Assembly (NCBI RefSeq): GCF_053078305.1
Contig: NZ_CP166879.1
Length of the DNA: 64,000 nucleotides
Strand: one strand, 5' to 3'
Shown here: piece after piece, positions 6,074-43,047 of the stretch
How positions within the stretch are numbered: the stretch's first letter is position 1
Layout of the letters: every line of letters begins with the position of its first letter
The notes under the pieces: model-generated
What the model was told of the DNA's origin: nothing
Seen by the model: the letters and a program-made list of their open reading frames with translations, nothing else
Databases searched by the model: none
Translations under genes and position numbers: made by a program

Positions 6074-6631
6074 TCAACAATGAATTTTTAGTAATTGCTC
6101 CACAGTCATATTTTTAATTGCGCTCCGGTTTACAAGAGTCCAGCCTTGTTTCTCCAGATAAAACTGGAAGGTATCCAGGGTGCAGACCATTGCGCCGTCC
6201 GGAACGGTTTCAGTGAATTTGATATTGCCGTGTTCGTCGAGACGGATAACCAGGGTACGTCCGTCCCCGTGAATCATTTTGTCGGGAGACGGGGCGTTAT
6301 TCTGGCGCAGTTCTTTCTCCATGCGATCGAACTCAGCGATGTAGGCTTCTTTAAATGCAGCGGCTTTTTTGCCGGTGAAGCCCATCACCAGGAAAACGAA
6401 GCCGTTTTTGGTGATTTGGTACATGGGGCGTTTTTCGCCTTTGGCATCGGTGTAGGTAACCGACACAAAATTGTGTTCGTTAAAATTTGATGAGCAGTCT
6501 AAATTGCGAATTTTATCCAGTACTCGCTCGTGACGCTTACCAAAGAACTCTGCAATTGCAACAGACGTAGTGACAGCGCGACCATTTTTGATGGTTACGT
6601 CAGGGTGAGAAAGGGTAGGGATAGTAGCCAT
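6074..6631 (-). CDS. Rha-family phage regulatory protein (antirepressor-type)
   Basis: Starts MATIPTL at 6631 with RBS AAGAGG. Contains ...TTSVAIAEFFGKRHERVLDKIRNL..., a Rha-like N-domain. The upstream 99 codons of the long ORF are an RNA leader. Confidence 0.7.
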   Translation of the reverse strand: MATIPTLSHPDVTIKNGRAVTTSVAIAEFFGKRHERVLDKIRNLDCSSNFNEHNFVSVTYTDAKGEKRPMYQITKNGFVFLVMGFTGKKAAAFKEAYIAEFDRMEKELRQNNAPSPDKMIHGDGRTLVIRLDEHGNIKFTETVPDGAMVCTLDTFQFYLEKQGWTLVNRSAIKNMTVEQLLKIHC

Positions 6632-6800
6632 AATGGCAGCCTCTTGGTTGAGTATTAATAACTCACCACCAAGGTTTTCCACGACCATAAGGGTGGTGAG
6701 ACGTACAGGGGTGGAAATACCGGTCAACCAAGAATCCGGCCAGCCTTGCGGCTGCCCTGCACGCCCCACCATAATCTGAATGTGGCTGTGCATTACGCAT

Positions 6801-6877
6801 AAAAAAACCGCCTGAGCGCGGTTATGCGCTTGATTGAATTCCGGGTTTCCACGCCCGGCACCCGCTTTATGAGGTGC
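6801..6877 (-). ncRNA. C4 / IsrK / P4-CI-like small RNA element in the rha leader
   Basis: 77 nt: hairpin GCACC-TCATAAAGCG-GGTGC, hairpin CCGGG-CGTGGAAA-CCCGG, terminator AACCGC-GCTCAG-GCGGTT plus T7. Loop 2 is complementary to TTTCCAC at 6717-6711. A homologous element lies at 35806-35883. Confidence 0.55.
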
Positions 6878-7119
6878 AGATGAACTATAATTCCACCCGT
6901 TCTGGTTTTCAATAGCTACATTCAACATTTTCTCTTACCCTTCATCACCGAAGTGAACTTTGTTGATGCAGTGCCTGGTGCCTCCAGGTGACGTTAACCA
7001 GTTAACAATTAACGCCGGAATACAGAAGTATGCCCGTTACGCCCCGTAAAAGACCACTTTACGGTTTTAACTGTTCCGCGTGCGCTTAGCCGCATTCACC
7101 GCATCACAAAATTCACTTT

Positions 7120-19833: not shown

Positions 19834-19842
19834 TATCACATA

Positions 19843-31091: not shown

Positions 31092-31281
31092 ACTGCAGGC
31101 GCTGCGTCAGGCGCGCCTTGATTTATTAACCGGTAAACGGGTGGTGTCTGTCCAGAAAGATGGTCGCAGAATTGAATATACGGCGGCCTCTCTGGATGAG
31201 CTTAACCGTGCGATCAATGATGCTGAGTTGGTACTGGGGACAACCCGCCGTCGCCGTCGTCCGCTGGGAGTGAGGTTATGA
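31075..31281 (+). CDS. W: Head-tail joining protein gpW
   Basis: 68 aa in the lambda W position, with a basic C-terminus. Confidence 0.8.
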   Translation: MVTVAELQALRQARLDLLTGKRVVSVQKDGRRIEYTAASLDELNRAINDAELVLGTTRRRRRPLGVRL

Positions 31282-32098
31282 AACGAACGCCTGTCCTGAT
31301 TGATGTGAACGGCGTTCCGCTTCGGGAGAGCCTAAGCTACAACGGGGGCGGCGCAGGATTTGGCGGGCAAATGGCAGAGTGGTTGCCACCCTCGCAGAGT
31401 GCCGATGCGGCCCTGCTGCCCGCGTTGCGTCTGGGGAATGCCCGTGCAGATGATCTGGTGCGCAATAACGGAATAGCGGCCAATGCGGTGGCCCTGCATA
31501 AGGATCACATTGTCGGGCATATGTTTCTGATTAGCTACCGTCCGAACTGGCGCTGGCTGGGGATGCGGGAGACCGCGGCAAAAAGTTTTGTCGATGAGGT
31601 GGAGGCGGCCTGGTCAGAATACGCAGAAGGGATGTTTGGTGAGATCGACGTGGAAGGGAAACGCACGTTTACGGAATTTATCCGTGAAGGTGTGGGCGTT
31701 CATGCGTTTAACGGCGAAATCTTTGTGCAGCCGGTCTGGGATACGGAGAGCACGCAACTGTTTCGTACGCGTTTTAAAGCCGTGAGTCCGAAACGGGTGG
31801 ACACGCCAGGACACGGTATGGGGAACCGTTTTCTGCGGGCCGGTGTGGAGGTCGATCGATATGGTCGTGCCGTTGCGTACCATATCTGTGAGGATGATTT
31901 TCCTCACTCCGGGAGTGGACGATGGGAACGGATCCCGCGTGAACTTCTCACCGGGCGTCCGGCCATGCTGCATATTTTCGAGCCGGTGGAGGACGGGCAG
32001 ACCCGTGGGGCCAATCAGTTTTACAGCGTCATGGAACGGCTGAAGATGCTCGATTCCCTGCAGGCAACACAGCTTCAGTCGGCCATTGTTAAAGCCAT
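31278..32098 (+). pseudogene. B: Portal protein gpB, 5' part (about 273 codons), interrupted by island insertion
   Basis: Lambda B-like up to ...TQLQSAIVKA, then 17 unrelated codons and a stop at 32150. Confidence 0.9.
32091..32098. repeat. attL core (AAAGCCAT)
   Basis: Identical octamer at 43930-43937. TATG follows 1 nt downstream at both junctions. Confidence 0.7.
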
Positions 32099-32227
32099 TT
32101 ATGTCTATCATCTCCCCGTAGTTGTCCGCATCGTTCGCCAACTCCACTGAAACCCTTGCTGCGGCTGGAATGTCGTTTTCCATACTTTTGATGACCGTTC
32201 ATCACACTTCCAGGTTTTCGCGGTTTT

Positions 32228-32280
32228 GTGTATTGCAATGTGTATTGCAAATTGGCGATCGGGATGGGTGTGTATTGCAA
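32228..32280. repeat. GTGTATTGCAA repeats (candidate integrase arm-type sites, left arm)
   Basis: Three copies at 32228-38, 32240-50 and 32270-80. Two more lie at 43835-57 near the other end. Confidence 0.5.
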
Positions 32281-32298
32281 ATCTCTTGAGGGCTGTTA

Positions 32299-33540
32299 AT
32301 GGCTATTGAAAACAAACTCAGTGACAAACTGTTAAAGAGTCTTGTCGGAAAACGGCAGGACAAACAAAAAACAATAGCGGATGGGCGCGGGTTGTCTGTG
32401 CGTGTAAGCATGGTTGGGGGGATCAGCTTTGTTTTTTACTATCGTCTTGGTGGCAGGGAATCCCCTCCGGTATGGCTTACACTTGGGCGCTATCCTGATA
32501 TGTCTCTTGCAACAGCCAGGCGCATGCGTGATCAGTGCCGTGAGTGGCTGGCTGAAAATCTGGACCCCCGCAGGCAAATAAAACTTGCCGCCGAAAAAAC
32601 CATGCAACCAGTGACCGTAAGGGATGCGCTGTTTTACTGGTACGACAATCACGCCACAACAGCCAGAAAAGAGCATGAATATTTAATAAAACGATTTGAA
32701 AAGCATATCTTCCCCTATATCGGTGATATGGCTATAGAACAGTGCAAATTACACACATGGCTTGCCGTCTTTGACAGGATCAAAAAAAATGCGCCTGTTA
32801 TGTCTGGTGCAATTTTTCTTGATATCAAACAGGCGTTGCGTTTTTGTCGCGTCAGGCAATACATCGCGTGCGATCCCTTTGGCGATATTAACGTAAGTTA
32901 TGTCGGGCGCTCATCCGGTATAAGGGATCGCGTTCTTAATATCAATGAAACAGCGGATGTATGGTCTTATGCTTACGGTAATAATTTGCTGACACTGTCA
33001 TCAATACATAACAGAAGAATAATGGTTATCTGCCTGGTGTTTGGTTGCCGTCAGCAGGAGGCGAGGTTATCCACATGGGACGAATGGGATTTAAAAAACT
33101 GGGTATGGACAGTCCCAAAAGAGCACAGCAAAAACAAGGAGGCCATAGTAAGGCCTGTTCCTGACGGCATAAAACAATGGCTCGTTAATCTTTACGCAGA
33201 AACAAAAAATCGCGGTTATGTTGTCGGTTGTGCTTTGCAAAGGGCGACAATAACAGGGGCTGCAAACAGAATATGCAGGCGTCTTGGTCATGATATTAAT
33301 GGCTTGTGGTGCATACATGATTTCAGGCGCACATTTTCCACTGCGCTTAATGATATGGGGGCGGATCCTTATATTGTCGAACTTCTTTTAGGTCATAAAG
33401 TGAAAGGGGTTGCCGGTGTTTACAATAAAAGCAGGCATATAAAGAAAAAACTTGAGGTGCTTAATATGTGGGTTAATTACCTTAATACGATAGCAGGATT
33501 TAACAACAACGTTATCGAGCTTAATAAAGAGGTGGTGTGA
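32299..33540 (+). CDS. int: P4-type tyrosine integrase
   Basis: 413 aa. N-terminal KLSDKLLKSL...DGRGLSVRV...FVFYYRLGG (DUF4102-like arm-binding domain). C-terminal HDFRRTFST...LLGHKV..VAGVYN. Confidence 0.9.
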   Translation: MAIENKLSDKLLKSLVGKRQDKQKTIADGRGLSVRVSMVGGISFVFYYRLGGRESPPVWLTLGRYPDMSLATARRMRDQCREWLAENLDPRRQIKLAAEKTMQPVTVRDALFYWYDNHATTARKEHEYLIKRFEKHIFPYIGDMAIEQCKLHTWLAVFDRIKKNAPVMSGAIFLDIKQALRFCRVRQYIACDPFGDINVSYVGRSSGIRDRVLNINETADVWSYAYGNNLLTLSSIHNRRIMVICLVFGCRQQEARLSTWDEWDLKNWVWTVPKEHSKNKEAIVRPVPDGIKQWLVNLYAETKNRGYVVGCALQRATITGAANRICRRLGHDINGLWCIHDFRRTFSTALNDMGADPYIVELLLGHKVKGVAGVYNKSRHIKKKLEVLNMWVNYLNTIAGFNNNVIELNKEVV

Positions 33541-33541
33541 T

Positions 33542-33799
33542 ATGGCAATTTATTCTCTTGTTGATGAAAACGATTTGCGCACAATGAAGGACATTGATCG
33601 GTTCATTCGTGAAAAAGAGTGCATAGCACTTACCACGCTGGCAAACTCAACACGCTGGAAAATGGAGCAGGCAGGTAAATTCCCGCGACGTATCAAGATC
33701 GGTGAACGTGCGGCAGGGTATCGACTTTCAGAGGTTCAGGCATGGATCCGTGGTGAGTGGCATCCTGGATGGAAACCTGGAAAAACAAAACAGCAATAA
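33542..33799 (+). CDS. alpA: AlpA-family regulator/excisionase
   Basis: 85 aa with ...STRWKMEQAGKFPRRIKIGERAAGYRLSEVQAWI, the AlpA/Vis-type HTH. Directly after int. Confidence 0.75.
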   Translation: MAIYSLVDENDLRTMKDIDRFIREKECIALTTLANSTRWKMEQAGKFPRRIKIGERAAGYRLSEVQAWIRGEWHPGWKPGKTKQQ

Positions 33800-33812
33800 C
33801 CAGTAAATAACG

Positions 33813-33834
33813 CCCCTCATCAAGAGGGGTTTTT
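33813..33834 (+). terminator. Intrinsic terminator after alpA
   Basis: CCCCTC-ATCAA-GAGGGG followed by T5. Confidence 0.6.
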
Positions 33835-33853
33835 GTCTATAGGGTAAAACGCG

Positions 33854-34432
33854 ATGAATAAAAATATTGCCGTGACGGGCAAGGGGTACGCTCGTCCAGT
33901 GAAAAAATTCTGTGATATTCGTGATCTTGTCGTTCTGCGCTTTGATGGTGTGAGCGTTCGCGTGGTGTATGTGAACGGCGATCCGTGGTTTGTTGCCGTT
34001 GACGTGTGCGCTGCGCTGGAAATTGTTGATCACAAGGTTGCGTTACGCCGTCTCGATGATGATGAAAAGGGGGAGTGTTTAATACCCACCCCAGGTGGAA
34101 ATCAAACAATGCGAACGGTATGCGAGTCAGGGTTCTACAAACTAATCGCCAGAAGTCGGAAAGCTGTTACTCCTGGCACGTTCGCCCGTCGTTTCAGTAA
34201 CTGGGTATTCAGAAATGTGATACCAGGTATCAGAAAAACGGGGGCTTATGGTATCCCGTGGGGGGCATTACAGGATTTTTCCCGCCGTAAAGAGCAATAT
34301 CAAATAAGTGCCAGCGAGAAGGGGAGGGAGCTACAGGCATGTAAGCGCAAAAAACGTGAACTGGAGGAAGAAGAAAAAAGGCTGATACGTGAATATCAGC
34401 CTGAGTTTTACTTTGGTGAGCGTATTCAGTAA
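33854..34432 (+). CDS. BRO-N domain protein (antirepressor-like)
   Basis: ...LRFDGVSVRVVYVNGDPWFVAVDVCAALEI...GGNQTMRTVCESGFYKLIARSR, a Bro-N pattern. Confidence 0.65.
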   Translation: MNKNIAVTGKGYARPVKKFCDIRDLVVLRFDGVSVRVVYVNGDPWFVAVDVCAALEIVDHKVALRRLDDDEKGECLIPTPGGNQTMRTVCESGFYKLIARSRKAVTPGTFARRFSNWVFRNVIPGIRKTGAYGIPWGALQDFSRRKEQYQISASEKGRELQACKRKKRELEEEEKRLIREYQPEFYFGERIQ

Positions 34433-34770
34433 CCACACGCGGTGCTGATTATACGGTACATCGTGTTAACCGAGAAGCTACCCACCAGCAAGGCAAAATC
34501 TTCTGCTAAAAAATGACATATGGCCAGTCGTCCGGAAAGCATGAAATTTTACAAAAATGGAAAATGAAGATTTTTATTGTGCTGGTGGGTAAAAACAAAA
34601 AGCGCCCCGTTGCCGGAGCGCCCTTGTGAACAATTAACCTGCTGCGAAAAAATTGGATCAGTGCAGGGAAATTATATCAACTGTGTGAAGAAGCGCCACA
34701 ATTGCCAGTTTAGCTTTGCGGCGAACGCGTCAATAAAGAATATTCTTTCTTTAAATTCTGTTTGTGTATT

Positions 34771-34800
34771 TTTTCGTAGTTTTTCGTAGTTTTTCGTAAG
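34771..34800. repeat. Three tandem 10-bp repeats TTTTCGTAGT
   Basis: Exact 10-bp periodicity. The same CTACGAAA half site forms a palindrome at 43442-43458. Confidence 0.6.
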
Positions 34801-34895
34801 GAGAAAGAGCGGCGCGTATGCACCGCTAAGGAGTTTATTTTCATGACTTATGCAGCTTTCAATCTTAGCACCGCCGTAGCTGGTGGACAAGGCTA

Positions 34896-35123
34896 TCAGC
34901 CAGGCGGTCGGTTTTTAGTGGCTTTTAACCGCCGTGGGTATTTCTCGACAAAATCTTCAAGGGCAAATTTTTCTGGTGGCACTAAGCGCGGCGCTGGTGG
35001 TGGTATTTTTGTTCTGGTTAGTTCTTCCTCAAGTCTGGCGCAGGCTTCTAACTGCCTTTGCCGGATGATTTCATCATCTTGCGTTTGCGTGTCTTGTATT
35101 GGTGATAGTGTGTTGTTGGTCAT
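34896..35123 (-). CDS. Hypothetical protein (second gene of the leftward regulatory operon)
   Basis: 75-aa ORF downstream of the RHH gene. Confidence 0.4.
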   Translation of the reverse strand: MTNNTLSPIQDTQTQDDEIIRQRQLEACARLEEELTRTKIPPPAPRLVPPEKFALEDFVEKYPRRLKATKNRPPG

Positions 35124-35180
35124 GATACTGCCCTGTAAAGCAATGCGCCGGAGTACCTCACGCCACGGCGCTGATAGTGA

Positions 35181-35486
35181 TTATTCTGATTCTTGGGTCT
35201 TGCGACGCTGGAGTTCTTCGCGTGCAACGGTGACAAGTTGCCCGATTTCTTCCGCTGCTTTGATGCCGATTTGTTCGACCTTAGCCAGAGCATCCAGTGA
35301 AGACACAAGGGGATTTTCTCCGCTGCCTTCTGCCTGGCGGCGGGCGATTTCACCGCGCATGGCGGTTACTATGAATCCGGCGTTGCTTTCACCGTCCAGT
35401 TTTACGGATTCCATGCCTTCAATAACATCATGCGGGATCCGAGCTGTCAGTGATTGTGATTTTGCGTTTTTTGAACCTGTAGCCAT
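35181..35486 (-). CDS. Ribbon-helix-helix (Arc/CopG-like) regulator
   Basis: ATG at 35486 with RBS GAGAGGA. N-terminal KSQSLTARIPHDVIEGMESV beta-strand/helix pattern. Divergent from the rightward operon. Confidence 0.55.
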   Translation of the reverse strand: MATGSKNAKSQSLTARIPHDVIEGMESVKLDGESNAGFIVTAMRGEIARRQAEGSGENPLVSSLDALAKVEQIGIKAAEEIGQLVTVAREELQRRKTQESE

Positions 35487-35507
35487 CTGTAATCCTCTCA
35501 ATGAAAG

Positions 35508-35576
35508 TGTAAGACAATATACACATAAAAAGTCTTACATAAAAGCATTGACATGTAAGCCACCTATAAATAAAGT
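35508..35576. promoter_or_regulatory. Operator palindrome plus rightward promoter
   Basis: TGTAAGAC (35508-15) and GTCTTACA (35532-39) form an inverted repeat. TTGACA (35548-53), 17 bp, TAAAGT (35571-76). Confidence 0.45.
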
Positions 35577-35805
35577 TACTTACACCTTGTTAATGCAAGG
35601 TGCAGAAACGACGAAACCCGGCAGTGCGCTAACACTAACCGGGCTTCTAACCACCAACGATAGAAAGCGTATCGAGGTAGCTATGAGAAATCATACCACA
35701 CACCCGCAAGGGCGGGACTCGCACAACCTGAATAAATACATCTGGCGTTTTCTGGCCCGAAAAAACCAGTTGATCGCCAGTGTCGAAAATAGCTATGATT
35801 CCCGC

Positions 35806-35883
35806 GCACCTCATAAAACGGGTGCCGGGATTGGCGTCCTGGGCAAAACTGAAGCGCATAACACGCGCCCCGCGTGTTTTTTT
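35806..35883 (+). ncRNA. C4 / IsrK / P4-CI-like small RNA element in the island leader
   Basis: GCACC-TCATAAAACG-GGTGC; CCGGGA-TTGGCG-TCCTGG; ACACGCG-CCC-CGCGTGT plus T7. Loop 2 is complementary to ACGCCAA at 35963-69. Homologous to 6877-6801. Confidence 0.55.
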
Positions 35884-36045
35884 GTGCCGCATAGTCACAC
35901 CTTATCAATGGTGGGCTGTACGGGGGCGGAGCAATCCGCGCCGGTTTCTTCAGTGTCCGGTTACGCCAACCCTGTACAGTCCGCCACCAGCGAAATTGGC
36001 GTTTCCGGTGGCGGTTATCTTAACCACACTGAGGAGGCTGCCAAC

Positions 36046-36237
36046 ATGGCTACTATCCCTACCCTTGTACATTCTCAAACCGCCTTTCTCTGGCGCTTTA
36101 TCATCTTTGGCGCGTCAGACCATCAAATCATCCACGTCACCGCCTGGACGGAACGCGAAGCGCGTAGCCGTTGCCCGTCCGGTTGTGTTGCTGTATTCGC
36201 CGCCCGTATTCGTCAGGAGGTGTGCCATGTGCAATAA
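36046..36237 (+). CDS. Icd-like small protein (host cell-division inhibitor family of P1/P4-type elements)
   Basis: RBS GAGGAGG. MATIPTLVHSQTAFLWRF...VTAWTEREARSRCPSG... Has the same first 7 codons as the helper rha gene. Confidence 0.5.
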   Translation: MATIPTLVHSQTAFLWRFIIFGASDHQIIHVTAWTEREARSRCPSGCVAVFAARIRQEVCHVQ

Positions 36238-36484
36238 AACCACACCGGACGCAGCCGCCGCGCTCACTACACTGATGCACGCGCTGATTGATATTTCTGT
36301 TATTGCTGACAGGGCGCATAAGCACGCCACCAGTGAAACAGAATATGCCGGGGCTTTCGTTCCTCATTCGCTGGCGGTTATGCAACTTAGTGCTGATATG
36401 GCGCTGAATGAGGCCAAAGCTATCCTGATTTCTGATTGTGAAAATGGGGGGGGGTTATGCGTGATGATCGTTTTAATGCCCTGA
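36227..36484 (+). CDS. Hypothetical protein
   Basis: 85 aa, RBS AGGAGG. Overlaps the icd-like stop. Confidence 0.4.
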   Translation: MCNKTTPDAAAALTTLMHALIDISVIADRAHKHATSETEYAGAFVPHSLAVMQLSADMALNEAKAILISDCENGGGLCVMIVLMP

Positions 36485-36678
36485 AACAGGAGTTTGATGG
36501 TGCGCCTGATGATGCAGGTGATGCGCTTTCGTCAATATCCGAACTGATAAGAGTGGCCTTTTTCTTACTTGGCACGAAAGAATATAAATCAACTGGAATA
36601 GACGTACTGAATATTACTGCTGATTATGCGGAATATATGGCAGAAGTGGATTTAAGAAAGATAACGGACAGGGGGTAA
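36457..36678 (+). CDS. Hypothetical protein
   Basis: 73-aa coupled ORF. Confidence 0.4.
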   Translation: MRDDRFNALKQEFDGAPDDAGDALSSISELIRVAFFLLGTKEYKSTGIDVLNITADYAEYMAEVDLRKITDRG

Positions 36679-36679
36679 T

Positions 36680-36913
36680 ATGCGTGATATTTACCACGAA
36701 ACAATAGACCGCGCATTTAGTGCCCTTGCTTACGCTGAAGGTATGTACGAAATATTGCAAATGTGTCTGGAAACATTTGGCGATAATGAGCGTGATGTAA
36801 AGAAGGCGCGGATTATTAAATCACTGATAACTCTCCTTGAACCTGTAATAACAGAGTTGCAGGAAATAGACTTATTGCACGACAGATATAACGAACAGCA
36901 CACCGGAGAATAA
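36680..36913 (+). CDS. Hypothetical protein
   Basis: 77-aa coupled ORF. Confidence 0.4.
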   Translation: MRDIYHETIDRAFSALAYAEGMYEILQMCLETFGDNERDVKKARIIKSLITLLEPVITELQEIDLLHDRYNEQHTGE

Positions 36914-36918
36914 AAATA

Positions 36919-37218
36919 ATGAAACTTAAATATCCTGGCTTAACTGCCAGTGGCAACACTCACCCTAAATTTACGCGCGGTGATATTTACCGCGACCAGT
37001 ACGGCGGCACGGTAATGATTAAGGGCGTGGCGGGACGGTGCGTAACTTACCGCCGTGAAGGCTACGAATATGATTGCGTGATGCCTGTTTATCAGTTCCG
37101 GCGTGATTTTTCTCTGGTACAGACCGCGCCGCATAACGTGCCCACCAGCAACGCCAGGGCACGGGCAAACATCCAGAAGCTGAAAACCATGATTAACGGA
37201 TTCAGGGGTAAAAAATGA
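36919..37218 (+). CDS. Hypothetical protein
   Basis: 99-aa coupled ORF. Confidence 0.4.
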   Translation: MKLKYPGLTASGNTHPKFTRGDIYRDQYGGTVMIKGVAGRCVTYRREGYEYDCVMPVYQFRRDFSLVQTAPHNVPTSNARARANIQKLKTMINGFRGKK

Positions 37219-38624
37219 AACTGGCACCGAACGTAAAACGATTACCGAAAGATAAATACACCGAAGCGGTTATTTTTGCGGGTATTGATGCTCACTCATT
37301 CGCAGAGCATTACATCATTGCACAGGCCAAAAAAGCAGGCGATCCAGTCCCTCCCGTTTATCTGGGGCGTTATCAGTTAAGCGAACTGGATAACCTCCAG
37401 ATTGTTGATGATGGGCGATACAGGGCGACGGTGATACGCGCCGGAAATATTGAAGAGCCGCAGCTGTTAACCATCGCCACGAAACTGGCGAGCGCCGGAG
37501 TCCAGGAGGCGCGGCTACTTTCTGAAAATTTCGAATTGCTGGAGGAATGGAGCGACCAGCTTCCACGGCTTAGGGAGGCATGGGAACGCGGGGAAAGCCT
37601 GGTCATGAAAAAAATTCCCCAGCGAAAAACCACGCTACCGATGAGCGTTGGATCTACCGGATACGACACACAGCTTGATTACGTGGTAAAGGGGATTATT
37701 CCGGCATCGTCGCTTTGCAGCATATACGGGGCGAGCGGTTCCTATAAATCATTCCTTGCCGGATCGTGGGCGTGTCACGTTTCCACGGGCCGCCAGTGGG
37801 GAGGCCGCAGGGTGGCGCATGGCGCTGTTCTCTATGTGGTTGGTGAAGGCGGTATCGGCGTTCCGCGTCGTGTAAAAGCCTGGGAGGTTGTGCACGGTGA
37901 GCAGGTGAAAAATCTGTATCTGGTAAACCGTCCCATCTTTCCGGCTGTCCCGCTTGATGTTGATGAACTGGTTATTGCTGCCAGTCAGGTGGAGAGGGAA
38001 ACGGGTAAACCTGTTCGCATGATTATTCTGGACACGCTGGCGCGTTGCTTTGGCGGCAATGATGAAAATGACTCCCGCGACATGGGGGCATTTATCCGTG
38101 GTTGTGACGAGCTTAAACGGCGCACAGGGGCTACGGTGCTGGTGGTTCACCATTCCGGCAAGGATGAAACAAAGGGGGCGCGTGGTTCCAGTGCATTTCG
38201 TGCATCACTGGACGCTGAATACCGGATACGCAGGGAGGACGCAGGAAGCGAAGCGCTGGTTATCTCATGCACCAAAATGAAGGACGCGGAGGAACTCAAA
38301 GAGGCTGCCTATGATTTGCGGGTGGTGGAGCTTTTTACCGACGCTGACGGGGAGTTAATTACGTCGCTGGTGGTGGTGGATAAGCCGCGCCCTCCCGTTG
38401 AACTGGAGCGCATCGAGGAGGCAGGCAACAAGACGGAAAACCATACCGCGCTATGGGGGTGCATCCGTTCACGCACACAGAACGGCGACAAGTGCACGAT
38501 CCCGCTGTTACGTGACGATATGAAAAAGCTGGGGTATGACACAAAACACCTTAAACGATGGTTAGCCAAACTGGAAAAAGACGACGTGATCTACATTGAC
38601 GGTGATGATGTAGGACCACTGTAA
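37215..38624 (+). CDS. Replication protein with RepA/AAA_25-type RecA-fold ATPase domain
   Basis: Walker A-like YGASGSYKSF, MIILDTLARCFGG..ENDSRDM and LVVHHSGKDETKGARGSSA motifs typical of RepA-like helicases. Iterons follow. Confidence 0.65.
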   Translation: MKLAPNVKRLPKDKYTEAVIFAGIDAHSFAEHYIIAQAKKAGDPVPPVYLGRYQLSELDNLQIVDDGRYRATVIRAGNIEEPQLLTIATKLASAGVQEARLLSENFELLEEWSDQLPRLREAWERGESLVMKKIPQRKTTLPMSVGSTGYDTQLDYVVKGIIPASSLCSIYGASGSYKSFLAGSWACHVSTGRQWGGRRVAHGAVLYVVGEGGIGVPRRVKAWEVVHGEQVKNLYLVNRPIFPAVPLDVDELVIAASQVERETGKPVRMIILDTLARCFGGNDENDSRDMGAFIRGCDELKRRTGATVLVVHHSGKDETKGARGSSAFRASLDAEYRIRREDAGSEALVISCTKMKDAEELKEAAYDLRVVELFTDADGELITSLVVVDKPRPPVELERIEEAGNKTENHTALWGCIRSRTQNGDKCTIPLLRDDMKKLGYDTKHLKRWLAKLEKDDVIYIDGDDVGPL

Positions 38625-38825
38625 AAAGTGGGCATTAAAAGTGGGAAAGGTGGGCGATTTAACGTAATTTTAACAAAATCACCCACTTTCCCACGTGTAT
38701 ATATCCCAAAAAGTGGGCACTAAAAAAATACCTATGAAACAAGATGATATAAATCCCAAACTTCCCACGTTGGACGAAGTGGGAAAACGTAAAAAGTGGG
38801 CGAAAAAAGTGGGTAGAGGTGGGCG
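38620..38825. repeat. Island ori candidate: AAAGTGGG iterons
   Basis: At least 8 direct (A/G)GTGGG copies (38627, 38640, 38649, 38712, 38778, 38795, 38808, 38818). Inverted copies at 38682-94 and 38764. Located directly 3' of rep. Confidence 0.6.
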
Positions 38826-38826
38826 A

Positions 38827-39078
38827 ATGACTCAAAAACACAGAGACAGAACAGAGCCAAAATATAAAGCGTTAGACATGACAGAGCACGCTTTAAAGGT
38901 GGCAATCAGGGTAATAGACCGCCACACGCGGGAAGGATACGCGAAGGAACATCCCGACCTGATAAGCGCATTCATGACCACAGCGGCGGCAAACTTTGCC
39001 ACGCTGACAGAACGGGAGATAGCCGAAGCGGAACAGGTAACAACCATCAACGTTAAAACCGGAGAGGTGGAATCATGA
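38827..39078 (+). CDS. Hypothetical protein
   Basis: 83 aa from the ATG at 38827. Longer starts (38695 GTG) would read through the iterons. Confidence 0.35.
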   Translation: MTQKHRDRTEPKYKALDMTEHALKVAIRVIDRHTREGYAKEHPDLISAFMTTAAANFATLTEREIAEAEQVTTINVKTGEVES

Positions 39079-39485
39079 CAGCACAGATAGCCGCTTACGG
39101 GCGGCTGGTGGACGACCCGCAGGTAAAACAAACCAGCAAGGGCACACCGATGACGCTGGCGCGTATGGCGGTATCTCTGCCATGCAGCCAGGCACAGGAC
39201 GGGCAGGCTACGTTATGGCTATCAGTGATGGCATTTGGTAAGCAGGCCGACTTCCTGGCTAAACATCAAAAAGGCGATGTTGCCAGCGTATCCGGCACGA
39301 TGCAGGTAAGCCAGTGGACCAGACAGAACGGGGAAACGCGGCAGGGTTATCAGGTTATTGCAGACAGTGTAATCAGTGCCCGTGCTGCCCGTCCTGGCGG
39401 GAGCAGACGTACAACCACAGGCACACAGGGTAATCAGCCACCAGCGGGAGGCGATGACCCTTACGGTGACGGTATTCCGTTCTGA
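39075..39485 (+). CDS. ssb: Single-stranded DNA-binding protein
   Basis: OB-fold N-terminus, Gly/Pro-rich linker and an acidic tail DDPYGDGIPF. Confidence 0.8.
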   Translation: MTAQIAAYGRLVDDPQVKQTSKGTPMTLARMAVSLPCSQAQDGQATLWLSVMAFGKQADFLAKHQKGDVASVSGTMQVSQWTRQNGETRQGYQVIADSVISARAARPGGSRRTTTGTQGNQPPAGGDDPYGDGIPF

Positions 39486-39495
39486 GGGGGTGACG

Positions 39496-39768
39496 ATGGT
39501 ACATGACCGCATAGCGGAGGAACTCGAGGCAAAAGGCTTTTACCGGAGGGCGGCGGCGCGATGGGGTGAAGTTATGCAGCTGGTGGAGACAGACAAGGAA
39601 CGGCATCAGGTTACGATGCGACGGCTGGAATGTTCCAGGAAGGCACAGAGGCCACCGGAGCCGCCGGATAACTTCGGAGACCTGAAAAAAGCAGTAGATC
39701 GCACTTATGCCGAAATGGGTATGGATGGTGTAAGCGATGAAATATGGCGTAATTACCCAGACAGCTAA
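39496..39768 (+). CDS. PerC-like transcriptional activator
   Basis: MVHDRIAEELEAKGFYRRAAARWGEVM.. resembles the recalled PerC-family N-terminus. Confidence 0.45.
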   Translation: MVHDRIAEELEAKGFYRRAAARWGEVMQLVETDKERHQVTMRRLECSRKAQRPPEPPDNFGDLKKAVDRTYAEMGMDGVSDEIWRNYPDS

Positions 39769-39774
39769 TCAACA

Positions 39775-39796
39775 GCCGGAGAAATCCGGCTTTTTT
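39775..39796 (+). terminator. Intrinsic terminator
   Basis: GCCGGAGAAATCCGGC plus T6, identical to the hairpin at 42049-42071. A second hairpin lies at 39810-39845. Confidence 0.65.
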
Positions 39797-40007
39797 GTAC
39801 CCAAAAAAAGCCCGATAAGTACAGGAGGCATCTTATCGGGCTTTTGCATATGAGGTTTTTTTGGTGCACTGACACACATGATCGGGGTAATCATTTCATA
39901 ATTTGCAACACAACTCAACATCATTGCACAAAATGCAATCCTGATTATAATCAGAGCTGGATGAACATCCAGTTCTGATTTTTTAAGTCAAAGAGGAATT
40001 TCTTACT

Positions 40008-40214
40008 ATGGCTGAAGAGAAAAAAGGCGGTGTTTCGGTGTACATAAGCCCCGAAATCGTGGAGGTGCTCAAGCAGCGCCACAAAAAAAACTATGAGGCT
40101 GGCGTAGCGGCTGGACTGGATCCGCTGATGACGCCGGAGCCGTCGATAGGTTCACTTGTGCGCTCTTATTTACTTGCGGCGCTTGGGATGCATAAAAATT
40201 ATGGTGGTGAATAA
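40008..40214 (+). CDS. Hypothetical small protein, first gene of the island head operon
   Basis: 68 aa, RBS AAGAGGA. Stop overlaps the capsid-gene start. Confidence 0.4.
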   Translation: MAEEKKGGVSVYISPEIVEVLKQRHKKNYEAGVAAGLDPLMTPEPSIGSLVRSYLLAALGMHKNYGGE

Positions 40215-41269
40215 TGACAGTAAAAGCAATGGCACTTACAACTAACCAGCTTTTCGCGTACCTGAATCGCGGGGATATTGCAGAATTTAAATTCAGTCCG
40301 CTGTTTACCACGCTGTTTTTCCCGAACGTGGCGACCTTCAACACCCAGAACATCATGCTGGACACCCTGGACATTGAAGAGGTTACGATGTCAGCGTTCT
40401 GTTCGCCTATGGTGGGTAGTCAGGTCCAGCGCGATAAAGGGTACGAAACCAGCACGATTAAACCAGGCTACATGAAACCCAAACACGAAATCGATCCAAC
40501 AAAAACCATCATGCGCATGGCTGGAGAAGATCCGGCACAGCTTAACGACCCTACCTACCGCCGTATGCGCCTGATTACTGGCAACATGCGCCGCCAGATA
40601 AACGCCATTAAAGCGCGCGTGGAATGGCTGGCGGTGAATGCGATAACGACCGGAAAAAACATCATTGAGGGCGAAGGCATAGAACGCTATGAAATCGACT
40701 GGAAAATACCGGAAAACTGCATCATAGAGCAGGCCAAGGGTAAAAAATGGTCCGAGCATGATAAAGATATTTACGATCCAATCTATGACATCGAACTATA
40801 CGCAGATCAGGCAGGTTGCCCCGCCAACGTCATGATTATGGGCGCTGAGGTATGGCGCACGTTACGCAGCTTTAAAAAATTCCGCGAACTGTACGATCTT
40901 TCCCGTGGTTCAGAATCCGCCGCAGAACTGGCCTGTAAAAACCTGGGTGAAGTAGTGAGCTTTAAAGGCTATCTGGGCGATATTGCCCTTATCGTCTATT
41001 CCGGCAAATACACTGACAGCGACGGTACCGAAAAATATTTCCTTGAGCCTGATTTGCTGGTCCTGGGTAACACCAACAATAAAGGGCTGGTGGCCTATGG
41101 TGCGATTATGGATCAGGAAGCGGTAAGAACGGGCGCAACGCAAAACATGTTCTACCCGAAAAACTGGATTGAAGACGGCGATCCGGCGATTGAGTACGTT
41201 CAGACGCACAGCGCACCGCAGCCGGTACCGGCAGATATTCGCAAATTTGTTACCGTCAAAATTGCTTAA
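40214..41269 (+). CDS. Lambda gpE-family major capsid protein paralogue (E')
   Basis: 351 aa. Shares PGY.KPKHE, GEDPAQLNDP.YRR, VVSFKGY.GD, DGTEK, YPK.W and GDPA.E blocks with helper E (46646-47674). Confidence 0.85.
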   Translation: MTVKAMALTTNQLFAYLNRGDIAEFKFSPLFTTLFFPNVATFNTQNIMLDTLDIEEVTMSAFCSPMVGSQVQRDKGYETSTIKPGYMKPKHEIDPTKTIMRMAGEDPAQLNDPTYRRMRLITGNMRRQINAIKARVEWLAVNAITTGKNIIEGEGIERYEIDWKIPENCIIEQAKGKKWSEHDKDIYDPIYDIELYADQAGCPANVMIMGAEVWRTLRSFKKFRELYDLSRGSESAAELACKNLGEVVSFKGYLGDIALIVYSGKYTDSDGTEKYFLEPDLLVLGNTNNKGLVAYGAIMDQEAVRTGATQNMFYPKNWIEDGDPAIEYVQTHSAPQPVPADIRKFVTVKIA

Positions 41270-41280
41270 CGGGGGATTCT

Positions 41281-41616
41281 ATGGACACTCCATACATTGA
41301 GTTATTTGCAGGCAGTCAGCAGGTATCCACGACGCTGGTACATTTTGCCGCTGATGCTGGCGTTATTCAGGAATTTACCCCGCTGATGCTGGCGGACAAT
41401 GGCGAGTTTAAGCCGTGGGATGGTCAGGAATCTGGCAAGGCTGTTTATCTGACCTCGTACCCCGTGGACACGTCAAAGCAGAAATCAGCACAGTGTTACA
41501 AGACGGGGATATTTAATATCGCCGCCGTAAACTGGCCTGAGAGCGCCGACACTGACGCGAAAAAATGCGCCGCCTTTGCGGGTTCTGGCGTATCCGTTCA
41601 GCCGCTGGCGCGATAA
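41281..41616 (+). CDS. Lambda gpD-family head decoration protein paralogue (D')
   Basis: 111 aa. Shares TPLML, WDGQ, YK.G.F, WPES and AF.G blocks with helper D. Confidence 0.75.
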   Translation: MDTPYIELFAGSQQVSTTLVHFAADAGVIQEFTPLMLADNGEFKPWDGQESGKAVYLTSYPVDTSKQKSAQCYKTGIFNIAAVNWPESADTDAKKCAAFAGSGVSVQPLAR

Positions 41617-41628
41617 GCAGGGGAAACG

Positions 41629-42042
41629 ATGGCAACGAATGAAAGCATCATGGCGCTACCGCTGGCGAGTAAATTTAAAGCAGAAGCGCGGGCAATGGCT
41701 GACAGAGGTTTATCAACCTACGAGGCCGTATATCAACTCAACAAACTGGAAGAGCAGGACAAGCCGCGCGCTGATGCGATTATGGCGCTTCATGAACATA
41801 ACGACTATCAGCCGCTGTTACGTGCAATGGCAAACGTGCCATGTATTAGCGTCGATAATGCTCGTGAAATCCTGAACATGACCATAGAGCAGGAGCGCCC
41901 AAAGGTTGCGCCGGAGCTTACCGCAGCCTTTGAAAACTTTATGGACATGCACAGCCCGAAAGCCGTATCACCCGGCATGGCATACGACGGCAGAAACCAG
42001 GGCGATGAAGGCGACGTCGATCGCATACTGAAAACCATCTGA
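41629..42042 (+). CDS. Nu3-like scaffolding protein (Nu3')
   Basis: The tail LTAAFENFMDMHSPKAVSPG...GDEGDVDRIL parallels the helper gpC tail TTALFEHFMANHSPAAVQGG...GDADVKML. Also IMALHE...ISVDNAREIL versus IMALDE...MTVESARAVL. Confidence 0.65.
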   Translation: MATNESIMALPLASKFKAEARAMADRGLSTYEAVYQLNKLEEQDKPRADAIMALHEHNDYQPLLRAMANVPCISVDNAREILNMTIEQERPKVAPELTAAFENFMDMHSPKAVSPGMAYDGRNQGDEGDVDRILKTI

Positions 42043-42048
42043 CATAAG

Positions 42049-42071
42049 GCCGGAGAAATCCGGCTTTTTTT
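42049..42071 (+). terminator. Intrinsic terminator abutting the island cos
   Basis: GCCGGAGAAATCCGGC plus T7. Confidence 0.65.
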
Positions 42072-42073
42072 AC

Positions 42074-42140
42074 GGGTCCTTTCCGGCATATGGACCCGTT
42101 ACGGGGCGGCGACCTCGCGGTTTTTCGCTATTTATGAGCT
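42074..42140 (+). promoter_or_regulatory. Island cos site 2 (same orientation as helper cos)
   Basis: 42074-42120 is identical to helper 28457-28503, including GGGCGGCGACCT (42104-42115). The downstream cosB-equivalent is different. Confidence 0.85.
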
Positions 42141-43014: not shown

Positions 43015-43047
43015 ACGACACCAGGCTATCAGAACGATGAGGGCACA

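What the first reader, a model, noticed from the sequence alone, without database searches (positions are those of the whole stretch)
35780..36240. Island RNA switch homologous to one in the helper, with a three-way compensatory sequence swap
Seen: downstream of TTGACA-17-TAAAGT lies a 78-nt element (35806-35883). It has hairpin GCACC-TCATAAAACG-GGTGC, hairpin CCGGGA-TTGGCG-TCCTGG, and a terminator with T7. The helper has the same element upstream of rha (6877-6801), with hairpin 1 almost identical but hairpin-2 loop CGTGGAAA. In each leader the loop-2 sequence is complementary to a site about 130 nt downstream, at the same position just 5' of the conserved CC(C)CTGTAC. In the island this is ACGCCAA (35963-69) against loop TTGGCGT. 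In the helper it is TTTCCAC (6717-6711) against loop GTGGAAA. About 25 nt further on, each leader repeats its own loop sequence (island ATTGGCGT 35995-36002; helper GTGGAAAA 6682-6675). So the target can pair either with the small RNA or with that downstream copy. Both leaders end with the same GCTGCC-N3-ATGGCTACTATCCCTACCC start (MATIPTL). Established: P1/P7 C4 RNA controls icd-ant through same-strand targets, and P4 CI RNA and Gifsy-1 IsrK use related logic. Inference: helper and island carry versions of one RNA switch with different specificities. The island copy gates the icd-like gene and the replication operon.
Basis: partly seen in the sequence, partly recalled or inferred. Interest (0 to 1): 0.8.

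Follow-up and report, generated by a model that had tools for sequence, protein, structure and literature searches.

The report
P1-type C4/IsrK antisense RNA switch
The phage satellite and the prophage it sits inside each carry a copy of a well-known phage RNA switch (the IsrK leader plus C4 antisense RNA, as in phage P1), tuned to different pairing sequences; it is a clean new example of a known mechanism, not a new one.

Summary
What it saw is half of a known system. Rfam calls isrK (35806-35882; 6801-6877) and, right after it, a full C4 antisense RNA (35904-35991; 6689-6776) in both leaders.

The IsrK loop is a1 and the downstream copy is a2, as annotated in phage P1.

In 61 unique homologous leaders, 6 a-classes and 15 b-classes covary perfectly and reassort. 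Tool pair counts show 6/7, 8/9 and 8/12 pairs with changes on both sides. Gifsy-1 mutants G28A/C162U and G31A/C159U hit exactly the a1:a' pairs.

The island's first gene is an Icd homologue, followed by replication genes. Predicted helper and island specificities are orthogonal: cognate about -24 to -25 kcal/mol, cross -5 to -9.

The island is a published helper-embedded PICI at the portal site, and that paper already noted C4 and isrK hits. Verdict: real and well supported, a new member of a known kind, of modest interest.

The parts
35770..35799 (+). Island leader promoter, TTGATC-18-TATGAT. It places +1 at 35806.
   Evidence: scan. Its position is conserved in 42 unique upstream regions and aligns with P1 P1c4/P51b.
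35806..35883 (+). Island IsrK / c4-a1b1 element: hairpin 1, hairpin 2 (a1 in the loop), spacer (b1), intrinsic terminator.
   Evidence: Rfam isrK 66 bits. c4-a1b1 reaches only 21.2 bits, below threshold. Terminator 35860-35878 plus T run.
35831..35837 (+). a1 (TTGGCGT), in the loop of IsrK hairpin 2. Complementary to a'.
   Evidence: Contains G28 and G31, the residues mutated in Gifsy-1.
35848..35854 (+). b1 (ACTGAAG), in the IsrK spacer. Complementary to the b' loop.
   Evidence: 9 pairs, 8 with changes on both sides.
35904..35991 (+). Island C4 antisense RNA homologue: 17-bp closing stem and two hairpins.
   Evidence: Rfam C4 77.6 bits. The MFE fold equals the Rfam structure, -46.9 kcal/mol, z = -5.2.
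35945..35956 (+). b' (UUUCUUCAGUGU), the 12-nt loop of C4 hairpin 2.
35963..35969 (+). a' (ACGCCAA), a single-stranded segment of C4.
   Evidence: Leader nt 158-164 include C159 and C162, mutated in Gifsy-1.
35981..36014 (+). a2 hairpin. The 3' strand of the C4 closing stem (CCGCCACC) pairs with GGTGGCGG and displays a2 in the loop. This is an alternative to the C4 closing stem.
   Evidence: 8 pairs, 5 with changes on both sides, 99.3% paired. -18.9 kcal/mol, z = -3.2.
35996..36002 (+). a2 (TTGGCGT), the downstream copy of a1 and a target of a'.
36026..36037 (+). b2 (ACACUGAGGAGG), the target of b'. It includes the Shine-Dalgarno sequence of icd.
   Evidence: 12 of 12 positions pair, including G-U. 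12 pairs, 8 with changes on both sides, 93.4% paired.
36046..36237 (+). Icd-like gene (63 aa, MATIPTL...), the first gene under the switch.
   Evidence: NCBIfam NF033153 58.9 bits. 39% identity to P1 Icd, E = 1e-7.
36227..39485 (+). Co-oriented downstream genes: small ORFs, DUF4222, AAA_25/RepA-type helicase (37215-38624), SSB (39075-39485).
   Evidence: Operon membership is inferred from overlapping or abutting same-strand ORFs.
6884..6912 (-). Helper leader promoter, TTGAAA-17-TATAGT.
6801..6877 (-). Helper IsrK element. a1 GTGGAAA at 6852-6846; b1 TCAATCAAG at 6837-6829.
   Evidence: Rfam isrK 68.4 bits.
6689..6776 (-). Helper C4 antisense RNA. b' AUUCUUGGUUGA at 6735-6724; a' UUUCCAC at 6717-6711.
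   Evidence: Rfam C4 79.8 bits. MFE -47.3 kcal/mol, z = -5.0.
6640..6682 (-). Helper targets. a2 GTGGAAA at 6682-6676; b2 UCAACCAAGAGG at 6651-6640, covering the SD.
6074..6631 (-). Helper Rha-family regulator gene (MATIPTL...), the first gene under the helper switch.
   Evidence: Pfam Phage_pRha 107 bits; TIGR02681 113 bits.

Best explanation
Both loci are immI-type antisense-RNA switches of the phage P1 c4-icd kind. I use P1's site names throughout.

How it most likely works:
1. A constitutive sigma-70 promoter starts transcription at 35806.
2. Most transcripts stop at the intrinsic terminator. This yields the roughly 77-nt IsrK RNA, which carries a1 (hairpin-2 loop) and b1 (spacer).
3. Read-through transcripts contain the C4 RNA. 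C4 presents b' in its hairpin-2 loop and a' in a single-stranded segment.
4. C4 pairs with a2 (just downstream of C4) and with b2 (which includes the Shine-Dalgarno sequence). This blocks translation of the first gene.
5. By polarity, that also blocks expression of the genes behind it. In the island these are icd-like plus the replication genes. In the helper it is the Rha regulator.
6. IsrK carries decoy copies (a1, b1) of the same targets. It competes for C4, in cis (an inactive long-range fold) and in trans (activation).
7. Specificity lies entirely in the a and b sequences. These differ between island and helper, so the two switches should not cross-talk.

Shown here:
- family membership and the six-site anatomy;
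- covariation of all four interactions;
- site-by-site collinearity with P1 and base-for-base correspondence of the mutated a1/a' residues with Gifsy-1;
- Icd homology.

Inferred, not shown:
- processing of C4;
- translational block followed by polarity;
- the decoy role of IsrK;
- control of island replication;
- absence of cross-talk in vivo.
For: - Rfam isrK and C4 score above gathering in both leaders. C4 folds alone into the family structure, z = -5.2 and -5.0.
- The P1 record annotates a1, b1, c4, a2, b2 and icd in the same order and at the same structural positions.
- 61 unique leaders fall into 6 a-classes and 15 b-classes. Each has matching a1/a'/a2 and b1/b'/b2.
- Cognate versus non-cognate longest complementary runs: a':a1 6.8 vs 3.7; a':a2 7.0 vs 5.1; b':b1 9.0 vs 4.4; b':b2 11.3 vs 5.9.
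- Tool pair counts: a1:a' 6/7, b1:b' 8/9 and b':b2 8/12 pairs with changes on both sides, 93-98% paired. None of 500 shuffles reached the observed covariation score.
- b2 always ends in the SD.
- Gifsy-1 experiments: G28A/C162U and G31A/C159U compensatory mutants; trans IsrK activates translation 139-fold; a processed RNA, STnc1160, lies downstream of IsrK. These residues map onto a1 and a', and Rfam calls C4 at that place.
- The island's first gene is Icd-like.
- Duplex energies: cognate -25.3 and -23.7 kcal/mol; cross -5.5 and -9.1.
Against: - There are no expression data for this locus. Processing of C4, its stability and the IsrK:C4 ratio are unknown.
- In Gifsy-1, a1 mutations in cis raise basal translation (Table 1D). 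A pure decoy model does not predict this. The authors favour a structural switch coupled to translation of an ORF that starts inside C4.
- That frame is open in 32 of 34 leaders, so translation through C4 may be part of the mechanism.
- IsrK alone is not unusually stable (z = -0.8).
- The homologue sample was collected with a pattern that fixed the IsrK stems, and it was filtered for a C4 scaffold. Those helices are therefore uninformative, and the sample is biased towards close relatives.
- Two sibling islands at the same portal site lack the leader, so it is not essential to this kind of satellite.
Confidence: 0.75

Rival explanations
1. Gifsy-1-type self-activation is the main mode. The read-through leader folds into an inactive structure in which IsrK's a1/b1 pair in cis with a'/b'. 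Short IsrK in trans displaces this fold and exposes the start of an ORF that begins at the ATG in the C4 closing stem. Ribosomes running through that ORF then open or couple to the downstream start. In this view C4 is not a separate diffusible repressor.
For: - Published genetics and native gels for the homologous Gifsy-1 locus.
- The MFE of both full leaders here pairs IsrK with the C4 region in cis.
- The C4-ATG frame is open in 32 of 34 leaders and in frame with the downstream ATG in 28 of 34.
- Two mutually exclusive helices (the C4 closing stem and the a2 hairpin) both show covariation.
Against: - This model does not need a2 or b2, yet both covary strictly with a' and b' in every class, and b2 covers the SD.
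- P1 C4 acts in trans on a2/b2 (P1 record annotation).
- The Gifsy-1 'restoring' double mutants stay 50-80 times above wild type (224 and 327 versus 4). That fits loss of a':a2 pairing better than restoration of a cis helix.
- The two models are not mutually exclusive.
Confidence: 0.3
2. P4-type immunity. The C4/CI-like RNA pairs with the upstream and downstream sites on the nascent transcript and causes premature transcription termination, rather than blocking translation. This keeps the satellite's replication operon off.
For: - P4 is a satellite whose CI RNA controls its replication operon in this way. The HE-PICI paper interprets the C4 and isrK hits in PICIs by this analogy.
- An intrinsic terminator lies directly after a1/b1.
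Against: - The scan found no terminator-like site between C4 and icd.
- b2 overlaps the SD in all 15 classes. That is the P1 signature of translational repression.
- The first gene is an icd homologue, as in P1.
- The P4 sequence itself was not compared here.
Confidence: 0.2
3. The conserved leader is a protein-coding region: an 'Ash family' N-terminal extension of Icd or Rha. The similarity between island and helper would then reflect a shared protein domain, not RNA.
For: - Pfam Phage_ASH matches the translated leaders at 63.2 and 59.1 bits.
- PGAP annotates an 'ash family protein' across the homologous E. coli leader.
- The frame is open across the leader in nearly all homologues.
Against: - There is no codon periodicity in the leader: entropy 0.73/0.75/0.69 at codon positions 1/2/3, against 0.42/0.38/0.69 in the adjacent Rha coding sequence.
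- Variation follows base pairing, with dozens of changes on both sides.
- The frame crosses an intrinsic terminator and starts upstream of the conserved promoter.
- RNA species have been shown experimentally in P1 and Gifsy-1.
Confidence: 0.05

Closest known systems
Phage P1/P7 immI operon (c4 - icd - ant) with C4 antisense RNA and sites a1, b1, a', b', a2, b2
   Same: - Same order and the same structural placement of all six sites.
- The promoter is at the same distance. An IsrK-like element with a terminator-like hairpin lies upstream. C4 has the same fold. b2 lies over the SD.
- icd is the first gene in the island.
- Specificity is changed by matched changes in the sites. That this is the basis of P1/P7 heteroimmunity is from my own knowledge of Citron & Schuster 1990, cited.
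   Different: - In the island, icd is followed by satellite replication genes rather than by the antirepressor ant. In the helper the first gene is Rha, not icd.
- No C1-type operator was examined at the promoter.
- The upstream element scores as isrK (66-68 bits), not as c4-a1b1 (21 bits). In P1 it is the reverse: c4-a1b1 51 bits, isrK 35 bits.
Salmonella Gifsy-1 isrK - orf45 (STnc1160) - anrP locus
   Same: - The mutated residues correspond base for base: G28 and G31 lie in a1, C159 and C162 in a', and the a-class is the same as the island's (ATTGGCGT / ACGCCAA).
- Rfam isrK, C4 and c4-a1b1 all hit Gifsy-1.
- The helper copy has the same kind of downstream gene (an antirepressor/Rha-type regulator next to the Q region).
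   Different: - In Gifsy-1 the ORF starting in C4 ends at the anrP start. Here it runs in frame into the downstream gene.
- The Gifsy-1 b' loop is shorter.
- The published model does not name C4, a2 or b2.
Satellite phage P4 immunity (CI RNA with seqA and seqC)
   Same: An RNA encoded in the leader of a satellite's replication operon has complementary sites on both sides. According to the HE-PICI paper, Rfam C4 and isrK detect CI and seqA relatives.
   Different: P4 acts by premature transcription termination. Here the SD-covering site points to translational repression. There is no sid, psu, delta or alpha gene set. P4 was not compared directly.
Helper-embedded PICIs (Tommasini, Mageeney & Williams 2023, PMC10111431)
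   Same: - The island has the four zones described there: integration, Bro, replication and late.
- It lies co-oriented inside a helper late gene at the published site B:Phage_portal_2:241.
- It carries 'immunity RNAs' in the Bro zone.
   Different: That paper does not describe the six-site anatomy, the a and b specificity classes, or a helper that carries its own copy with a different specificity.

Membership tests
Rfam isrK (RF01394) | Covariance-model score at or above the gathering threshold (50 bits) over the full model. | tested here: met
   66.0 bits (35806-35882) and 68.4 bits (6801-6877), model positions 1-77 of 77.
Rfam isrK (RF01394) | Two 5' hairpins followed by a Rho-independent terminator. 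| tested here: met
   Hairpin 1 is 100% paired and hairpin 2 89% paired in 34 homologues, but these stems were fixed by the search pattern.
Rfam isrK (RF01394) | Expressed as a stable Hfq-binding RNA of about 77 nt. | not testable with these tools
   Needs Northern blot, RNA-seq or Hfq co-immunoprecipitation.
C4 antisense RNA (RF01695) | Covariance-model score at or above the gathering threshold (45 bits). | tested here: met
   77.6 and 79.8 bits, model positions 1-87 of 87.
C4 antisense RNA (RF01695) | Long closing stem enclosing two hairpins, with a single-stranded 3' segment. | tested here: met
   The MFE equals the Rfam structure, z = -5.2 and -5.0. The closing stem is 100% paired with 6 pairs changed on both sides; hairpin 1 has 5 of 5 pairs changed on both sides.
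P1-type immI switch | a' and b' are complementary to a2 and b2 on the same transcript downstream, with one site over the RBS of the first gene. | tested here: met
   b2 ends in GGAGG or AGAGG in all classes.
P1-type immI switch | Upstream copies a1 and b1 of the targets. | tested here: met
P1-type immI switch | The first regulated gene is icd. | tested here: met
   Met for the island: NF033153 58.9 bits and 39% identity to P1 Icd. Not met for the helper copy, whose first gene is Rha.
P1-type immI switch | C4 is cut out of the operon transcript (RNase P) and acts in trans. | not testable with these tools
   Known for P1/P7 from my own knowledge. A processed species, STnc1160, is reported in Gifsy-1.
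Rfam c4-a1b1 (RF03163) | Covariance-model score at or above the gathering threshold (46.7 bits). | tested here: not met
   21.2 bits at 35793-35845. In P1 (51 bits) and Gifsy-1 (48.1 bits) this model overlaps the isrK match, so the two families describe the same element.
Helper-embedded PICI | [quoted passage not shown] | tested here: met
   The portal gene is split at Pfam profile positions 235-241. A 13-nt core lies at 32091-32103 and 43930-43942, and joining at the core in silico gives a 530-aa portal ORF. In other E. coli genomes the portal match ends exactly at the core.
Helper-embedded PICI | Zones in the order integration (int, small HTH), Bro, replication, late. | tested here: met
   int, Bro-N, Icd, DUF4222, helicase, SSB, E-type capsid protein, D-type decoration protein, Nu1-type TerS. 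AlpA itself was not confirmed; the 70-aa and 85-aa ORFs have no Pfam hit.
Pfam Phage_ASH (PF10554) | HMM score above the cut-off (26 bits). | tested here: met
   63.2 and 59.1 bits on the conceptual translation of the leaders.
Pfam Phage_ASH (PF10554) | Evolves as a protein-coding sequence. | tested here: not met
   No excess variation at the third codon position in the leader, in contrast to the adjacent Rha coding sequence.
P4 CI / seqA / seqC immunity | Pairing causes premature transcription termination upstream of the replication genes. | not tested
   P4 was not fetched. No terminator-like site was found between C4 and icd.

The most novel reading that the evidence does not exclude
The a and b sites may form a modular, two-part RNA 'address code'. 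At least 6 a-classes and 15 b-classes occur here in 23 combinations. The code reassorts among lambdoid prophages and their satellites. Selection may keep elements that share a cell, including a satellite embedded in its own helper, on different addresses. The satellite's replication switch would then be insulated from the helper's antirepressor switch. It could still respond to whatever raises read-through or IsrK levels on induction.
Probability: 0.35. Interest if true: 0.5.

Novelty: new member of a known kind. Interest (0 to 1): 0.3.

Why it matters
This gives a fully dissected example of the P1-type C4 switch inside a helper-embedded satellite. It shows that the published Gifsy-1 IsrK system and the P1 c4 system are the same six-site device. 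It also shows that the device exists in many interchangeable specificities.

That helps in three practical ways:
- **Annotation.** 'Ash family protein' calls and two separate Rfam families cover one RNA element.
- **Experiment design.** The exact bases that set specificity are now known for this locus.
- **A testable question.** Do satellites keep their replication control orthogonal to the helper's own switch?

It does not reveal a new mechanism.

Tried and rejected
- **Wrong loop length in two patterns.** My C4 patterns for the collection scans specified a 13-nt hairpin-2 loop by miscount; the enteric leaders have 12 nt. One search gave about 7 real homologues among 35 hits. I used those only as an outgroup. 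In 113 unique loci, a1, a2 and b2 show cognate complementarity, but b1 does not.
- **Swapped labels.** My first a/b labels (notes 1 and 2; printouts) were swapped relative to P1. I corrected them after reading the P1 record.
- **Hairpin register.** IsrK hairpin 1 was mis-registered by one base, giving a false 37% pairing. This is corrected.
- **Alignment shift at a2.** The a':a2 count on alignment A1 is depressed for 7 sequences by a 3-nt alignment shift. The per-sequence test shows a run of 7 in all 61 leaders.
- **Orthogonality as a rule could not be tested.** Two other E. coli islands at the same portal site, and their helpers, have no IsrK-C4 leader at all. Only three contigs with two leaders were available: the window, L170 and L245. 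The a site differs in 3 of 3 and the b site in 2 of 3.
- **Attachment core.** The 21-nt direct repeat at 32228 and 43835 is not the core. Excision there does not restore the portal gene. The true core is 13 nt.
- **Rejected readings.** Chance complementarity; a purely protein-coding leader.
Full report

Yes.
- the 78-nt island element at 35806-35883 with two hairpins and a terminator;
- its helper counterpart at 6877-6801;
- the loop sequences TTGGCGT and GTGGAAA;
- their complements ACGCCAA (35963-35969) and TTTCCAC (6717-6711), just 5' of CCCTGTAC;
- the downstream loop copies (35995-36002; 6682-6675);
- the shared GAGGCTGCC-N3-ATGGCTACTATCCCTACCC start.

One detail is off. TTGACA-17-TAAAGT lies at 35548-35576, about 230 nt upstream. 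The promoter that fits the RNA 5' end is TTGATC-18-TATGAT at 35770-35799. Its position is conserved in 42 unique homologous upstream regions and aligns with P1's P1c4/P51b promoter.

**2. What is it?**

Rfam at curated thresholds finds the following in both leaders:

| Family | Island | Helper | Gathering |
|---|---|---|---|
| isrK | 35806-35882, 66 bits | 6801-6877, 68.4 bits | 50 |
| C4 antisense RNA | 35904-35991, 77.6 bits | 6689-6776, 79.8 bits | 45 |

The C4 match begins 21-24 nt downstream of the isrK match. Folded alone, both C4 copies adopt exactly the family structure (-46.9 and -47.3 kcal/mol; z = -5.2 and -5.0).

The GenBank record of phage P1 annotates a1, b1, c4, a2, b2 and icd. 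Reading that leader gives the following placement:
- a1 lies in the loop of the second hairpin of an upstream element.
- b1 lies in the spacer after that hairpin.
- b' lies in the C4 hairpin-2 loop.
- a' lies in the 3' single-stranded segment of C4.
- a2 lies just after C4.
- b2 lies over the icd Shine-Dalgarno sequence.

The window's leaders have the same order and the same structural placement.

| Site | Island | Helper |
|---|---|---|
| b1 | ACUGAAG, 35848-35854 | UCAAUCAAG, 6837-6829 |
| b' | UUUCUUCAGUGU, 35945-35956 | AUUCUUGGUUGA, 6735-6724 |
| b2 | ACACUGAGGAGG, 36026-36037 | UCAACCAAGAGG, 6651-6640 |

In both leaders b2 covers the SD.

P1's upstream element also scores as isrK (35 bits), overlapping its c4-a1b1 match (51 bits). 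In Gifsy-1, isrK (79 bits), c4-a1b1 (48 bits) and C4 (69 bits) all hit. So Rfam isrK and c4-a1b1 model one homologous element.

**3. Does the covariation hold in further homologues?**

A scan of viral contigs with an IsrK-scaffold pattern that left the loops free gave 120 loci. Of the isrK matches, 108 have a C4 scaffold within 330 nt, giving 61 unique leaders.

These fall into six a-classes, written as a1 loop / a' / a2:
- ATTGGCGT / ACGCCAA / ATTGGCGT
- GGTCGCAG or TTTCGCAG / CTGCGAA / TTTCGCAG
- CGTGGAAA / TTTCCAC / CGTGGAAA
- CGTGAGAA / TTCTCAC / CGTGAGAA
- ATTGGAAC / GTTCCAA / ATTGGAAC
- ATTTGCAC / GTGCAAA / ATTTGCAC

There are also 15 b'-loop classes, each with matching b1 and b2, in 23 a-by-b combinations.

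Cognate sites pair much better than non-cognate ones. Longest complementary runs:

| Interaction | Cognate | Non-cognate |
|---|---|---|
| a':a1 | 6.8 | 3.7 |
| a':a2 | 7.0 | 5.1 |
| b':b1 | 9.0 | 4.4 |
| b':b2 | 11.3 | 5.9 |

On a 34-sequence alignment, the pair-counting tool gives:

| Helix | Pairs | Changed on both sides | Cells paired |
|---|---|---|---|
| a1:a' | 7 | 6 | 97.9% |
| b1:b' | 9 | 8 | 98.4% |
| b':b2 | 12 | 8 | 93.4% |
| a':a2, 5-pair segment | 5 | 5 | 95.9% |

The other two a':a2 pairs are blurred by a 3-nt alignment shift in 7 sequences. None of 500 shuffles reaches the observed covariation score. Over the whole tested structure, pairing falls from 87.6-90.7% to 34-47% when the partner is slid by 1-3 columns.

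One further conserved helix appeared. The 3' strand of the C4 closing stem can instead pair with a downstream GGTGG... segment (35981-35988 with 36007-36014), which places a2 in a loop. It has 8 pairs, 5 changed on both sides, and is 99.3% paired. Its energy is -18.9 kcal/mol, z = -3.2. It excludes the C4 closing stem, which has 17 pairs, 6 changed on both sides, and is 100% paired. The read-through leader therefore has two conserved alternative folds.

Caveat: the IsrK stems and a few C4 bases were fixed by my pattern and filter, so those helices say nothing. The sample also leans towards enteric relatives.

In 113 distant Pseudomonas-type C4 loci, a1, a2 and b2 show cognate complementarity but b1 does not.

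**4. Link to experiments**

In the Gifsy-1 study (PMC4825925), the following were shown:
- The middle of IsrK pairs with a region about 130 nt downstream.
- G28A and G31A are compensated by C162U and C159U.
- IsrK in trans raises anrP translation 139-fold.
- A processed RNA, STnc1160, lies downstream of IsrK.

I fetched Gifsy-1 and aligned it. G28 and G31 lie in the a1 loop ATTGGCG. C159 and C162 lie in a' (TTACGCCAAC). In the island leader, a' occupies nt 158-164, so the residue numbers coincide. The published "orf45" starts at the ATG in the C4 closing stem. The island thus has the same a-class as Gifsy-1, and its a1:a' pairing has in effect been proven genetically.

The paper compares IsrK with P4 seqA, but the sections I read do not name C4, a2 or b2.

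**5. Context**

The island's first gene (36046-36237) is a true Icd homologue: NCBIfam NF033153 at 58.9 bits, and 39% identity to P1 Icd. It is followed on the same strand by small ORFs, DUF4222, an AAA_25/RepA-type helicase and SSB. After these come a lambda E-type capsid protein, a D-type decoration protein, a connector and a Nu1-type TerS. The helper leader precedes a Rha-family regulator.

Among the 108 homologous leaders, the first downstream gene is as follows:
- Rha-type: 68.
- Icd-like: 10, of which 5 are followed by the RepA-type helicase and 3 of those 5 also by the island-type capsid gene.
- Other or too short a flank: 30.

The first roughly 7 codons (MATIP..) are shared whatever the gene, so the module boundary lies just inside the coding sequence.

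The island splits the prophage's lambda-family portal gene at Pfam profile positions 235-241. A 13-nt core, AAAGCCATNTATG, lies at 32091-32103 and 43930-43942. Joining at the core restores a 530-aa portal ORF. In most other E. coli genomes the portal match ends exactly at the core.

This is the published helper-embedded PICI configuration at site B:Phage_portal_2:241 (PMC10111431). That paper already states that Rfam C4 and isrK hit several PICIs and HE-PICIs, and it calls them immunity RNAs of the Bro zone.

**6. Mechanism**

The best-supported reading is the P1 immI logic:
1. IsrK transcripts mostly terminate.
2. Read-through transcripts supply C4.
3. C4 pairs through b' and a' with b2 (the SD) and a2, and blocks translation of the first gene.
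4. Polarity then silences the genes behind it.
5. IsrK carries decoy sites and relieves or tunes repression.

The anatomy, the covariation and the homology are shown. Processing, the translational block, polarity, the decoy role and control of island replication are inferred from P1 and Gifsy-1.

Two observations complicate a pure decoy model:
- Mutations in a1 in cis raise basal translation in Gifsy-1.
- The frame that starts in C4 stays open in 32 of 34 leaders.

These suggest that translation through C4, and the two alternative folds, are part of the switch, as the Gifsy-1 and P4 work proposes.

The leader is not simply coding. It matches Pfam Phage_ASH at 63 and 59 bits. However, its variation shows no codon periodicity (0.73/0.75/0.69, against 0.42/0.38/0.69 in the Rha coding sequence). 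The variation follows base pairing instead.

**7. Helper versus island specificity**

| C4 from | mRNA targets (a2 + b2) | Summed duplex energy (kcal/mol) |
|---|---|---|
| Island | Island | -25.3 |
| Helper | Helper | -23.7 |
| Island | Helper | -5.5 |
| Helper | Island | -9.1 |

IsrK pairing behaves the same way: -19.1 and -18.4 cognate, against -6.3 and -5.2 cross. The two switches are therefore predicted to be orthogonal.

Whether that is a rule could not be tested. Two sibling islands at the same portal site, and their helpers, lack the leader altogether. Only three contigs with two leaders were available. The a site differs in 3 of 3 and the b site in 2 of 3.

**8. Verdict**

It is incomplete about the actors: C4 itself and the SD-covering b set were missed.

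The system is a new member of a known kind, drawing on P1/P7 C4, Gifsy-1 IsrK, P4 CI and the HE-PICI immunity RNAs. Three small additions come out of this work:
- the explicit unification of the IsrK and c4-a1b1 systems;
- the catalogue of reassorting a and b classes;
- a helper/embedded-satellite pair with orthogonal addresses.

Noticed in passing
window 32091-43942 (cores 32091-32103 and 43930-43942); portal halves 31278-32150 and 43876-44709: The 11.8-kb island is integrated inside the prophage's lambda-family portal gene, in the same orientation. Joining at the 13-nt core AAAGCCATNTATG restores a 530-aa portal ORF. [quoted passage not shown] 63 complete E. coli genomes carry the same portal-attL-int junction.
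   Followed up: yes
window 35794-36076 and 6600-6890; L001 6657-6995: Pfam Phage_ASH (PF10554) matches the conceptual translation of the whole IsrK-C4 leader (63 and 59 bits). PGAP annotates an 'ash family protein' pseudogene over it. The region shows no coding periodicity, so this protein family appears largely to be a translated RNA element.
   Followed up: partly
L276 (P1) 4218-4312; L277 (Gifsy-1) 34240-34329; window 35793-35882: Rfam isrK (RF01394) and c4-a1b1 (RF03163) overlap on the same element in P1, Gifsy-1 and this window. isrK is nevertheless not in the C4 clan CL00128. The two families seem to describe one homologous RNA.
   Followed up: partly
window 32227-32282 and 43835-43859: Repeats of TGTGTATTGCAA(A/T) lie just inside both island ends, including a perfect 21-nt direct repeat. 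They are not the crossover core. They are probably arm-type integrase or excisionase binding sites.
   Followed up: partly
window 38621-38813: Three copies of AAAAAGTGGGCA(T/C)TAAAA, spaced 83-85 nt apart, lie directly after the helicase gene. They look like iterons, possibly the island's replication origin.
   Followed up: no
window 39775-39796 and 42049-42070: The identical 22-nt terminator-like hairpin GCCGGAGAAATCCGGCTTTTTT occurs twice in the island: after the SSB region and after the connector gene.
   Followed up: no
L170 9645-11209; L245 about 10220-11132: Two complete IsrK-C4 leaders lie in tandem on the same strand, 0.65-1.3 kb apart, in single viral contigs. They have different a-classes. 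In L245 the b-class is the same.
   Followed up: partly
L278 about 13187-13378; L279 35095-35295: Sibling islands at the same portal site in E. coli EC28 and SCEC020022 have an icd-like gene but no IsrK-C4 leader. Their short icd upstream region instead carries GAATACCA / TGGTATTC repeats, possibly an operator for a protein repressor. The regulatory module in front of icd is therefore swappable.
   Followed up: partly
window 36046-36066 and 6631-6611; many loci: The first roughly 7 codons (MATIP..) are conserved whether the downstream gene is icd-like, Rha-type or something else. The recombination boundary of the regulatory cassette therefore lies inside the coding sequence.
   Followed up: partly
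window 7125-7176 (-), 14216-14391 (+), 19758-20006 (+), 20837-21049 (+): Other curated RNA hits in the helper prophage: DicF about 250 nt upstream of the helper IsrK on the same strand, a hok/sok antitoxin RNA, three tRNAs, and STnc100.
   Followed up: no
window 34843-36237 (+): A 464-aa open frame runs through the leader and across about 960 nt upstream, where it lies opposite real minus-strand genes (YlcI/YnfO family, 35181-35501). The upstream part has no Pfam match and is probably not a gene.
   Followed up: partly
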